64,000 nucleotides of DNA from the NCBI GenBank assembly GCA_021513715.1, contig CP084167.1:320001-384000 (forward strand), in the 5' to 3' direction. Each line of letters begins with the position of its first letter. The stretch's first letter is position 1. Below are positions 46,847-51,936 of this stretch, in pieces. A model generated the notes under the pieces. The model searched no databases and had not been told where the DNA came from. It was given only the letters and a program-made list of their open reading frames with translations. A program made the translations under genes and the position numbers. The DNA is from Candidatus Heimdallarchaeum endolithica. GTDB lineage: Archaea; Asgardarchaeota; Heimdallarchaeia; Heimdallarchaeales; Heimdallarchaeaceae.

Positions 46847-48295
46847 ATCCACTTTTCAGATGAAAAAAAGGTAATTTCCATTGCCGAAAAGGTAGTATGT
46901 TTTTATTATGACCATATTCCAATAAGATGGTTTTTTTCACTGGAGAAGAGTCCTTTTTCAAAAAAAACTAGTTGCAAAGTTTAAAAGTTTATAATTAATA
47001 TTGAAGTGAAAAAGAGATAAGAAAAGAAGAAAAAATAAAAAAAAACAACATTAAGATTCTTGAACTTTCTCCTCTTCAAGTAGATCTTTTATTTTTTCCT
47101 CAATTTTTTCTAGCTGTGTCATATTAGCAAATATAAGTTCAGTTGTAATTTCCCAATATTTAGTTAAAGTAGAATAGGAAAATTTGTTGATAAAAGGAGA
47201 AGTTTTTTCTACTACTTTTCTGAATTTTCCTAAAACACCTTTTGCAAGTTCAATCTCCTTATAGGCTTCTAACTTTCTAATCTTAATTTCCTCTATATTT
47301 TCTAATCCATCTATTTGGTTTACTAGTTTGTCATAAATATCATATTCCTTTAGAGCTCGTAGATTACTATCAATCCAATTTCTCACTTTATCTAATTCTT
47401 CATTTAGCTTCTTTTTAGCTTTTAACCATTTTTTATTCTCAATTAACTCCTCATTTTCTAGATAATATGTTGCGAAGTCCACTAAAACCTCAAGGAATTC
47501 ATTGAAAAAAGTATCAATTTTCGCTCTTTCTTCTTTCTTAGATATAAGTTCTTCAATTTTTATTGTTTCAATAATATTAATTTTCTTTTCTATTTCTCTA
47601 ATTTTCTTCTTGAAAAGGGATAACAATGCTTGTTCTTTATTTTTGTTCTTTTCTATCAGGAAAAGTACCAATAGCACAGTTAATCCTATAAATAGTATTC
47701 CAGAACCTAAAGCAGAAAATACAATAATTATTATTTTTACTTTTCTTTGTTTCTCATTGACTAATGGATCTCTTCCTTGAATTAATTCATCATTGTCTGA
47801 AATTCCATCACCATCAGTATCAGCTTTTCTAGGATTAGTTCCATAATATTTGACCTCTTCATAATCTATTAAACCATCACCATCAGTATCAACATCTGTA
47901 GATTCAGTAAAATATTCAATCACTTCTTCGTAATCTGTTAATCCATTTCCATCTGTATCTGGGTCATTGGGATCAGTTCCATAACCTAGTACTTCAGTTA
48001 CATCATTTAACCCATCATCATCAGTGTCAGCGTCCAATGGGTCTGTATTATAAGCATAAACTTCATCAGCGTCAGATAACCCATCATCATCAGTGTCATA
48101 ATCTAAAGGGTCAGTGAACTAGTAGAATATCTCTGACCAGTCATCCAACCCATCCATGCTTTACTTTTTGCGAAATTTTGCGAACATTAGGATAGAGAGT
48201 ATGGATGAAAAAGAAAAAAAGAGACTTTTTATAAGAAAAAATAGTAGAAATAAATGAAGAGAAGAAGAAGAAAAAGAAAAATAAGAGGAAAAAAG

Positions 48296-49746
48296 ATGGA
48301 GAAGATAGTCAAAACTTTGAAAGTTAGAATAAAGAATGAAGTTTTGACGAGGAGAAAAAAGGAAAGATTAAGGAGAATAACAGGGAGAGACACAAGGATA
48401 ATAGAAAAATATGTAAAAATTATTCATCACAACAGAAGAAGACTGTGTATGAAAACAAAGAAAGGAGAAATAAGAGTACATAAAGGGAAGTTAGATGAAC
48501 TAACATTAACAACATCAAGGATAAAAAAAGTAGAAGAGCGAAGAGAGACTGTTCCTCATGACCTTAAAAAGATGTTTCCCTATTGTTCTCACGATGAGTT
48601 TCAAGAGTGCAGAGATATAGCAGTACAACTGTACGAGCAAGGATATAGACCTGAAGCCACTCGTCCTCCAAAAAAGAGACCCCGAAGACAACTAATCAAT
48701 AAAAAAAGATTTATTCTTACTAATTTACCAAAAGAGAAAAATAACTCTATTTCTCGTTGGTGGGTAGGAATAAGAGACTCATTAGACACGTGGAAAAGAA
48801 AGACCCCCTACCATCAGAAGTTGTGGTTACCTTTAGAGATGAGCACTTTTCATCAAAAAGAATTGAAAAAAGGACAAGTGAAAAGCCTGGAATTAAGATA
48901 TAAACGTTCTACACGTGAGTGGTGGGTGTATTTTCAATTAGAAGTTCTTCCTCCTTCTTCTTTTCTAAGCGATAATTCCTCTTCTTCTTCTCTTCCTCCA
49001 GCTGTGCTGGGGATAGATCTAGGGATAAACATTCCTGCTGCAGGAGTGTTACTAACTCCCAAAAAGAAATTAACTATTAAAGAAATAAAATTTTGGCATA
49101 CCAAACAGTGGAATAGAATTAATCACAGATATAAACTCAAGTTTTCCCGTCTTCAGAGGAAAGCAGCTTTAAATGACCAGTCGGGTAAAAAACACCAAAT
49201 TTATCGTTTCCTTAGTCTTCTCAGAAGAAGATATAGAAACGTTAAACGGTCCTATATTCACCAATTTATAAGCGACGTTGTGCGGACGATAGAGACCTAT
49301 GCAAAAGTGTATGACCTTTTCGTCGTCGTAGGTTACCCCAAAAATGTTAGAAAAAAAAAGGAAAAGGTAAAAGTACTCGTTATTATCGTAGAAAACTTTA
49401 CCAGTGGAATTATGCTCATATTCTTAGTCTTCTCCGTCGAGCATTGATATTAAGAGGTTTTGAATCTCACCGCATTCTCACTTTAGACGAAAGAGGAACA
49501 TCTTCTCATTGTTCCCGTTGTGGAAAAGAAGTTTCTCGTCCCGTCAGAGGATTAATACACTGTCCCTTTTGTAACTATACTTACCACTCTGATTTAACAG
49601 GAGCTAGAAATATTGCTCGTAAATTCCTTAGTCATCTTTTTCGTCCCCGTACTACAACTATTACTGATTATTTTACTGGTCAAAAGTTTAGTCTTACGCA
49701 TTATACTGTTTGCCGAGGACTCAGCCATTGGTTGCAGTCCCAGTAG
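48296..49746 (+). CDS. tnpB: TnpB-like RNA-guided nuclease with rearranged RuvC-II, split by a -1 frameshift at A9G (49351-49360)
   Basis: RuvC-I VLGIDLG, VVVGYP, LDERGTS, Zn finger CSRC/CPFC, RuvC-III HSDLTGARNI; the -1 frame reads KGKGKSTRYYRRKLYQWNY... into the second ORF; ~483 aa when joined. Confidence 0.85.
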
Positions 49747-49978
49747 ACAAAAAGAAAGATAATTTCTCTATTTTAGGGATAATTCTTTCTTTTTTGTCTC
49801 TCGTGGAGTGAAGAGAACATCTTCTCTTCTTTATGATTCCCCCGATTCGTGTATGACGTCTGCCTTAATCCTTCTTCTTTCATTGTATGTTAGGATTAAG
49901 TTCTCAAGAAACTAATAATTCTCTATCTTTGTTTTTTTCTTGAAAGACTAAGTTCGACAAACTTCGCAAAAAGTAAAT
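49747..49978 (+). ncRNA. Candidate omegaRNA scaffold
   Basis: Four consecutive stems between the tnpB stop and the element end (49745-49799, 49801-49836, 49864-49900, 49904-49943); position matches known TnpB right-end RNAs. Confidence 0.55.
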
Positions 49979-51936
49979 CATGTCTGTATCATTTGAAAAG
50001 GGGTCACATCCATATTGAATTTCTAATCCATCAATAAGGTCGTCATTGTCTGTATCATTAAACATAGGATCAGTTGTCAAGTCTACTTCTACTGAATCAA
50101 TTAAACCATCATCATCGCTATCAGGATTATTAGGAAAAGTACCAAGAGTAAATTCTTCGAAGTTTGACAAACCATCTCCATCTAAATCGTCATTAGCATC
50201 ATTTATTGTTATATCTAAACCAACTTCAAGTTCGTAATAATCAGGAATAGAATCTTTATCGTAATCAGAATAATTCGCAAAAATATCAATAGAACCTGAC
50301 TCACCATCAATTAAATGGAAAGCTGATCCATTATTATCACTCCAAAAATTACCGACAGATTCTAAATTACTATACCAGCTATTATTTAATCCATCATCAT
50401 AAGCTTGAATAGACCCATTATTGTTTAAAACAAAAACATTTTCCAGTATCGTATTATTATTACTTAAAGAAACAGAGATACCATATTTACTATTATTGAA
50501 TATGACGTTCCTAATTATAGAATTATTATTACAGCTACTTAGTCTAATTCCATAAGATTGACCAAAATTAACTATGTTGTTTTCAAACAATGAAAAATCT
50601 GATTTAATAAACCACATAGAATAATCTTTCGAATAAGATAGTAAATTGTTTTTAATTTCAAGATAATCAGAACTAGAAATAAAGATAGAGTAATTATTAA
50701 TGGAAAAAACATTGTTAAAAATTTTACAATTTGTTGACTTAAAACTTCTAGAGCTGTTCTTGTGGTATTTATTATTGAATTGTCATTAATAGAAAAATTA
50801 TTACACGCACTTAGGCTAATTGCTGAATTAATAATGCCTTTTTCTAAATCGCTATTATCAATTGAATTGTTTGATATTGTGACATTATTCCCTGTATATA
50901 CTCTAATTGAATAATCATGAATATTAGAGAACGTATTATTAGAAATACTACTGTTATAGATTGATTAGCACTCAATTGCAGTTTTAGAAGTAGAAATATT
51001 GTTGGTATTGCATAAAACATTCATTGATCTTTGGAAATTGATTGCGATAGAAGAAACATTAAATATTTTATTTCGAAGAATATTTGAAAAACTACCATTA
51101 TTAACAGAAATAGCAAATTGCGATAGTGAGTGAAATTCATTATCGTTTATCTCGTTGTACCATCCATCTACTACTTCAAAACCAACAAACCCTCCACTTA
51201 TTTTGTTTTTTGTAATATTATTATAATGACTAGTAAATCTAGCAAAAATAGCTTTATAATTGAAATTTGAGATCGTATTGTTTGTTATTACTGAATAATT
51301 GTTATAGAGTGTAATTACTGACGTATATTTGCTTCCTTTAAAGTTTATTAGGGTTGAGTCAGTTATCTTAAGTGAAGCTCCTTCTTCTGCTTCGATGTAC
51401 CATGAATAATCAGAAAAAGCTTCTATTTTAGAATTAATTATTGTAAGATTACCATTATTTTTAACTATAAAATTAGCTTTGTCATCTTCATTACCATTCA
51501 TCTCTATTACACAATTTTCTAATACTAAAGTCCCTCCACTTTCTATTGAAACTGAATCATTAATGTAAATTACTTCAGAATTAATAATTGTTTCTTGAGA
51601 AATTGTCCACACCCCGCTACTAGGAGGGGGAAAATCTCCGCTTCCGGAAGCTATAACAGGAAGTAAGTTAGAATTTAAACCACCCCCAAAAATAAAACAA
51701 ACTAATAAAACTGTTGTCAAAGTAGTTAATTTTTTCTTTGAGATGGTTTTTTTTGGTTTATTAATCATATTCTTGTTTATTTTCACCCTCTATATTAATA
51801 TTTTCTAATAATTAAATATATAAAAAATAGAACTTTTCAATAAGTTTACTTTTTCTTTAAAAAAGAATAGTTTTATAAGTTTGAATTACTATAATCCTAT
51901 TCACTATAGATAAAAAAATAACTAAAGGGGATCAAA

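What the first reader, a model, noticed from the sequence alone, without database searches (positions are those of the whole stretch)
48155..49982. TnpB-only mobile element with terminal inverted repeats and a CATG duplication
Seen in the sequence: an 1820-bp insert with ~31-bp imperfect TIRs (15-bp perfect core TTTACTTTTTGCGAA). Each end has two TTTGCGAA-like motifs 10 bp apart, CATG sits on both sides, and removing the insert exactly restores the host frame (D-T-D-M-D-G-L). There is no transposase inside. Established: classical tnpB carriers (IS200/IS605, IS607) lack TIRs and true target duplications, whereas eukaryotic Fanzors often ride in TIR transposons. Inference: this may be an undescribed archaeal TIR transposon family, mobilised in trans, that uses an RNA-guided nuclease. 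Because CATG is palindromic the junction is ambiguous: a 4-bp TSD, a 2-bp AT TSD, or TG...CA ends with none. The helically phased end repeats could also be serine-recombinase (IS607-like) binding sites.
Basis: partly seen in the sequence, partly recalled or inferred. Interest (0 to 1): 0.92.

Follow-up and report, generated by a model that had tools for sequence, protein, structure and literature searches.

The report
Asgard TnpB transposon with symmetric ends
This is one copy of a large family of jumping elements in Asgard archaea that carry only an RNA-guided nuclease between mirror-image ends, always insert at an AT pair, and are moved by an enzyme encoded elsewhere that has not been identified.

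Summary
Observation confirmed. The element is real: H. aukensis has the empty site with one CATG. It belongs to a Heimdallarchaeaceae-wide family, with at least 42 complete copies in this genome: 18 tnpB elements from 3-4 unrelated TnpB lineages and 24 MITEs, all sharing one end layout. The 4-bp CATG duplication is refuted; across 61 junction pairs only AT is shared at both ends, and the target is C-AT-(G>A). This copy's tnpB is frameshifted. No copy seen carries a transposase. Searches of both closed Heimdallarchaeum genomes found no IS607 TnpA, IS630/ISL2-type DDE enzyme or aCas1, and H. aukensis has no Y1. Best model: IS607-like serine-recombinase crossover at an AT core in trans, with TnpB/omegaRNA homing (about 0.45); candidates are two family-specific chromosomal serine recombinases. 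Main rival: an Asgard Cas1 integrase (about 0.3), because this TnpB is sister to aCas1-linked TnpBs and an aCas1-TnpB unit of a sister family has a similar right end. TnpB inside TIR ends and moved in trans is already known in general; I found no paper describing this family. The scan flagged other copies of it in this genome.

The parts
48155..48157 (+). Left junction: host C plus AT core; with the preceding C it gives the predicted TAM 5'-CCAT
   Evidence: empty site; junction table (-1 is C in 57/61; -2 is C in 6/7 subfamily-A sites)
48158..48185 (+). Left inverted end: T-run plus GCGAA motif, repeated at 10-bp spacing
48296..49746 (+). tnpB of the ABC clade (485 aa when intact; RuvC-I Asp, rearranged RuvC-II with Gly plus alternative Glu, C4 zinc finger, RuvC-III Asp); frameshifted in this copy at about 49351-49359
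49747..49981 (+). Predicted omegaRNA scaffold that ends at the right junction; the guide would be read from host DNA starting at 49982
   Evidence: 60 predicted pairs, 12 with a compensatory change among 9 related sequences (weak); role inferred from known TnpB systems
49952..49979 (-). Right inverted end
49980..49982 (+). Right junction: AT core plus host G
   Evidence: +1 is G in 43/61
47051..48154 (-). 3' part of the interrupted host gene (TSP3-repeat membrane protein), with an extra stop at 48119-48121
49983..50617 (-). 5' part of the interrupted host gene (beta-helix/NosD and TSP3 repeats); an 866-codon open frame in H. aukensis

Best explanation
A non-autonomous TnpB/omegaRNA transposon of a Heimdallarchaeaceae-wide family that works like IS607 but has symmetric ends and an AT core instead of GG. 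Shown: boundaries, an AT overlap only, target C-AT-(G>A), inverted non-palindromic end motifs, no transposase in cis, recent spread, and end sharing by unrelated TnpBs and MITEs. Inferred: a serine recombinase supplied in trans binds the two ends, cuts around AT, excises a double-stranded circle whose joint is an attP-like dyad, reseals the donor without a scar, and reinserts at C-AT-G-like sites. TnpB, with an omegaRNA whose guide is the right flank, then cuts the empty site next to an NCAT TAM so that repair restores the element. The best candidates in the two closed genomes are two compact chromosomal serine recombinases (SR1, G000:316731-317450; SR2, G000:405384-406091); a lost or unsampled IS607-type TnpA is the alternative.
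For: AT at both junctions in 61/61 tabulated elements, but CAT in only 44 and CATG in only 27. Empty sites CATA and CATT. A strict core dinucleotide plus an upstream preference equal to the TAM is the shown behaviour of IS607 CboIStron (10.1101/2023.11.20.567912), and relaxed-target large serine recombinases with a conserved 2-bp core exist (10.1101/2021.11.05.467528). The -2 base follows the TnpB lineage (A: C; B: A/G; E and MITE F: T), as TAM-linked retention would predict. Predicted circle joints are dyads. SR1 and SR2 keep the catalytic Y-x-R-x-S and R-D-R-x-x-R motifs, fold like the catalytic and recombinase domains of large serine recombinases, and were found in 20/21 family genomes and 0/180 other Asgard genomes. 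Closed H. aukensis carries more than 10 copies yet has no Y1, tyrosine recombinase, IS630- or ISL2-type DDE, IS607 TnpA or aCas1 hit. Five Thorarchaeota aCas1-TnpB units have an IS607-like TnpA reading frame at their left side (recognised by motif only).
Against: No recombinase gene was found between these ends in any locus examined. SR1 is syntenic and about 75% conserved, as a housekeeping gene would be, and its co-distribution with the family is a single evolutionary event. Sister family f3 has no SR1/SR2 hit yet has similar right ends, one of them on an aCas1-TnpB unit. End motifs vary between subfamilies (GTACAA, ACGTAA, GCGAA, CCCCAC), which fits several co-evolving enzymes better than one fixed host enzyme. 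The family's genuine IS607 has different ends. The 61/61 count is partly by construction, since ends were located with AT-containing motifs; one copy (L040) has AA at the left junction. No circle or activity was observed.
Confidence: 0.45

Rival explanations
1. Non-autonomous descendants of Asgard aCas1-TnpB transposons, moved in trans by a Cas1-fold integrase that makes a 2-bp AT stagger (or joins TG...CA ends into CA/T without duplication); the helper is lost from, or not assembled with, the sampled Heimdallarchaeaceae.
For: The TnpB clade is sister (SH-aLRT 98, quick tree) to TnpBs that sit head-to-head with a 1500-1900-aa protein. That protein's N-domain is Cas1 by fold: the top 12 hits are all Cas1, Z 9.6-13.4, next 6.4. 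Their downstream GTTCACTCA motif identifies them as the Cas1H-Asgard loci of PMC10691335. In sister family f3, an aCas1-TnpB unit and 15 other loci end in a TTTGTAC palindrome followed by (C/G)AT and mostly G or A, the same geometry as here.
Against: No aCas1 of either subfamily in 28-30 family genomes or in the closed G000 with a 77-sequence profile at maximum sensitivity (best E 0.053), although MITE copies there differ by one base. Known casposases duplicate about 14-15 bp (own knowledge). Thorarchaeota aCas1-TnpB ends do not follow this layout. I could not define the f3 left ends.
Confidence: 0.3
2. A MITE-like derivative family of an unidentified DDE transposon with a 2-bp AT target duplication (an IS630- or ISL2-like enzyme), like the DDE-linked TnpB branches.
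For: True inverted ends with subterminal repeats and a near-palindromic target (-1 C, +1 G). TnpB with TIR ends next to DDE enzymes is published.
Against: No PF13358 or PF13359 hit in five genomes. The multi-copy DDE families of G000 have different ends and 8- to 16-bp duplications. The terminal bases next to AT vary (left G/A, right C/G), unlike typical DDE ends.
Confidence: 0.15
3. Ordinary IS200/IS605-type (IS1341/PATE) elements moved by Y1 TnpA, where CAT is the target at the left and TCAT the right end, and the TIRs are only palindromes.
For: Solo tnpB with a conserved left tri- or tetranucleotide and an NCAT right end resembles IS605. A related g4 subgroup has asymmetric ends and a random +1 base.
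Against: +1 G in 43/61 (P about 1e-21 against 16% background; sites are not fully independent). Non-palindromic motifs (GCGAA, CCCCAC) face each other in inverted orientation. No end hairpin folds better than shuffles (the IS605 control end was also weak). No Y1 hit in H. aukensis or in 25 g4 genomes; the only Y1 gene of G000 has MITE D inserted at its 5' end.
Confidence: 0.06

Closest known systems
IS607 family (serine TnpA plus TnpB; ISC1926, IS1535, CboIStron; PMC6188088, 10.1101/2023.11.20.567912)
   Same: tnpB at the right end, invariant 2-bp core at both junctions with no longer duplication, upstream target preference that can serve as TAM, short helically spaced end motifs
   Different: AT rather than GG core; ends are inverted repeats at equal distance from the junction; no tnpA in any copy or in either closed genome; ends shared by several unrelated TnpB lineages
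aCas1-associated TnpBs, Cas1H-Asgard-1/-2 (Altae-Tran 2023, PMC10691335; Makarova 2020, cited there, not readable here)
   Same: Sister TnpB clade with the same rearranged RuvC-II; right end finishing in ..TCA; f3 members share the palindrome plus (C/G)AT layout
   Different: No aCas1 in cis or anywhere in the family genomes searched; 1.8 kb instead of 8-11 kb; shorter TnpB
DDE-associated TnpB branches DDE-1 to DDE-6, including IS630-TnpB (PMC10691335), and Fanzor carriers
   Same: TnpB between inverted terminal repeats; solo copies moved in trans; alternative catalytic Glu
   Different: No DDE partner found; AT core; the tree here links it to aCas1 TnpBs, and Fanzors were not included in the tree
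IS200/IS605 solo-tnpB elements (IS1341 group) and PATEs
   Same: tnpB-only or protein-less derivatives, with omegaRNA at the right end
   Different: Inverted non-palindromic end motifs, biased right flank, and Y1 absent from hosts with many copies

Membership tests
IS607 | Conserved 2-bp core at both junctions, no longer duplication | tested here: met
   AT in 61/61; empty sites CATG, CATA, CATT
IS607 | Core or target is GG | tested here: not met
   Core is AT; GG per PMC6188088
IS607 | No terminal inverted repeats | tested here: not met
   15-21 of 25 end positions match in inverted orientation
IS607 | N-terminal-HTH serine TnpA in cis or in the genome | tested here: not met
   G000 and G001 have only SR1 and SR2; the family's IS607 has other ends
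IS607 | Double-stranded circular intermediate, scarless excision | not testable with these tools
   Needs reads or an experiment
aCas1-TnpB (Cas1H-Asgard) | TnpB belongs to or adjoins the aCas1-linked clade | tested here: met
   Sister group, support 98 in a quick tree
aCas1-TnpB (Cas1H-Asgard) | aCas1 gene adjacent or in the genome | tested here: not met
   0/28-30 family genomes; best E 0.053 in G000
aCas1-TnpB (Cas1H-Asgard) | GTTCACTCA motif downstream of tnpB | tested here: inconclusive
   Only the ..(A/C)TCA tail is shared; f3 aCas1-linked right ends resemble ours more closely
IS200/IS605 (Y1) | Subterminal hairpins in direct orientation and a random right flank | tested here: not met
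   Inverted non-palindromic motifs; +1 G 43/61
IS200/IS605 (Y1) | Y1 TnpA available in the host | tested here: not met
   None in closed H. aukensis; the only G000 copy has MITE D at its 5' end
DDE TIR transposons (IS630, ISL2 group) | Terminal inverted repeats with a short fixed duplication | tested here: inconclusive
   TIRs present; a 2-bp AT duplication cannot be told from a recombinase core by sequence alone
DDE TIR transposons (IS630, ISL2 group) | Cognate DDE transposase with the same ends | tested here: not met
TnpB nuclease | RuvC D-E-D triad and C4 zinc finger | tested here: met
   D241, alternative E401, D435 and four Cys invariant in 49 homologues; this copy is frameshifted before the last two catalytic residues

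The most novel reading that the evidence does not exclude
These TnpB elements have no transposase of their own anywhere and instead use host-fixed compact serine recombinases (SR1/SR2, possibly the family's substitute for the missing XerA) as a shared mobilisation platform, which several unrelated RNA-guided nucleases have colonised independently.
Probability: 0.22. Interest if true: 0.9.

Novelty: new variant of a known kind. Interest (0 to 1): 0.66.

Why it matters
It defines a compact, testable family in the archaea closest to eukaryotes in which one end design has captured at least three, probably four, unrelated TnpBs. Either remaining mechanism would be new: transposition by host-fixed serine recombinases, or the first substrate and target rule (a 2-bp AT overlap) for the untested Asgard Cas1 integrases. 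It also supplies intact 430-505-aa TnpBs with predicted NCAT TAMs and omegaRNA boundaries, and a small serine recombinase that may integrate at CATG-like sites.

Tried and rejected
4-bp CATG duplication: rejected by empty sites and junction variants. Search for an autonomous copy found none: genome-wide weight-matrix scan, end-pattern search in 31 genomes, GTDB and metagenome scans, viral contigs (110-111: only distant TnpBs, no ends). Y1, IS630 (PF13358), ISL2/Harbinger (PF13359) and tyrosine recombinases were not found where needed. The multi-copy DDE families of G000 have other ends. The family's IS607 has other ends and is absent from G000 and G001. Extra SR paralogues are not bracketed by these ends. 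aCas1 was not found in the family with three queries. No convincing junction-like or dif-like natural site was found in G000. Two mis-paired rows (L114, L055) were removed from the junction table (63 to 61). The careful tree did not finish; the quick tree is quoted, and lineage H was not in it. Makarova 2020 was not available. Term searches of the Wu 2022, Valentin-Alvarado 2024 and BMC Genomics 2026 texts showed no description of these ends; their supplements were not read.

Full report
Observation. The inverted arms (48155-48185 and 49952-49982, 27/31), the two 10-bp-spaced motifs, CATG on both sides and the restored host frame are all present. The sister species H. aukensis holds the empty site with one CATG, so 1824 bp were added. 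The only gene is tnpB. It is frameshifted here near 49355 but intact (485 aa) in sister copies. The genome size and its relatives suggest Ca. Heimdallarchaeum endolithica.

The family. In this genome the element has five close copies (subfamily A) and related subfamilies AB, B (about 81% protein identity) and C (about 53%). The same end layout, AT followed by 6-7 variable bases, a T-run and GTACAA, ACGTAA or GCGAA, also bounds a distant TnpB lineage E (about 27%), a further lineage H, and two MITEs, D (about 380 bp) and F (about 356 bp). I tabulated 42 complete copies in G000, and MITE copies differ by as little as one base. Other genera of the family carry the same system, including lineage G and ends with a non-palindromic CCCCAC motif in inverted orientation. 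A quick tree separates the ABC, E and G TnpBs, so the ends, not the nuclease, define the family.

The junction. Over 61 elements AT is present at both junctions in all, CAT in 44 and CATG in 27; the target has C at -1 (57/61) and G at +1 (43/61) (ends were located with AT-containing motifs, so the first number is partly built in). Empty sites reading CATA and CATT exclude a 4-bp duplication. The -2 base follows the lineage: C for A, A/G for B, T for E and F. This matches the rule shown for an IS607 element, where the core dinucleotide is strict and the upstream preference equals the TnpB TAM.

The nuclease. RuvC-I and RuvC-III Asp, a Gly at the usual RuvC-II Glu with an alternative Glu, and a C4 finger are conserved in 49 homologues. 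The 235 bp between the stop codon and the right junction fold into conserved stems with some covariation, consistent with an omegaRNA whose guide is the right flank. Homing at the empty site is inferred from known TnpB systems and was not tested. The nearest relatives outside the family are Thorarchaeota and f3 TnpBs that lie head-to-head with a giant protein whose N-domain folds as Cas1 and that carry the GTTCACTCA motif of the published Cas1H-Asgard loci.

Which enzyme moves it. None was found between the ends in any search. Y1 is unlikely, IS630- and ISL2-type enzymes were not found, resident DDE families have other ends, the family's IS607 has other ends and is missing from both closed genomes, and aCas1 is undetectable in the family (67, 117, 135, 143). 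What both closed genomes do hold are two compact serine recombinases, SR1 and SR2, with intact catalytic motifs and a large-serine-recombinase fold without the zinc ribbon. They were found in 20/21 family genomes and in none of 180 other Asgard genomes, in a family with no conserved XerA hit. Against them, they are not bracketed by the ends, and sister family f3 lacks them yet has multi-copy right ends of the same geometry, one of them on an aCas1-TnpB unit. I therefore give serine crossover at AT 0.45 (about half of that to SR1/SR2), aCas1 0.30, a DDE enzyme with an AT duplication 0.15, and Y1 0.06.

Comparison and verdict. It most likely works like IS607, but it fails IS607 membership on the GG core, on the absence of TIRs and on TnpA. 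Its TnpB adjoins the aCas1-linked clade, but aCas1 is missing. TnpB between inverted repeats and mobilised in trans is already described for DDE-linked branches, so the architecture alone is not new. The AT-core, symmetric-end platform shared by unrelated TnpBs, with no identifiable cognate transposase, was not found in the papers searched. It is a new variant of a known kind with an open and directly testable mechanism. Interest 0.66.

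Noticed in passing
G000:C1:316731-317450 and 405384-406091 (L001, L002; outside the window): Two conserved single-copy compact serine recombinases specific to Heimdallarchaeaceae, a family with no conserved XerA hit; they may be chromosome-dimer resolvases.
   Followed up: partly
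window 45844-46782 (-): IS481-like transposase, about 22 copies in the genome, TGT...ACA ends with an unusually long duplication of about 15-16 bp.
   Followed up: partly
L044-L054 (g4 genomes): Same TnpB clade with a 330-430-bp asymmetric, hairpin-rich left end and a random base after the right end; possibly an intermediate form, in a genus with no Y1 hit.
   Followed up: partly
L286, L287, L290, L291, L297 (Thorarchaeota): aCas1-TnpB units with a convergent IS607-like TnpA frame, suggesting that aCas1 may be cargo of IS607 elements there.
   Followed up: no
L003:1874-2256: MITE D inserted at the 5' end of the genome's only Y1 tnpA (IS605).
   Followed up: partly
L106:2200-2250: An E-type element inserted at the right-part TCAT of a MITE D copy in H. 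aukensis (nested insertion).
   Followed up: no
L302-L317 (family f3): Multi-copy right ends with a TTTGTAC palindrome and (C/G)AT junction in three f3 genomes; left ends not defined.
   Followed up: partly
L156-L165, L205-L206: Genuine IS607 with TnpB of over 600 aa in genera g2 and g4, absent from Heimdallarchaeum.
   Followed up: partly
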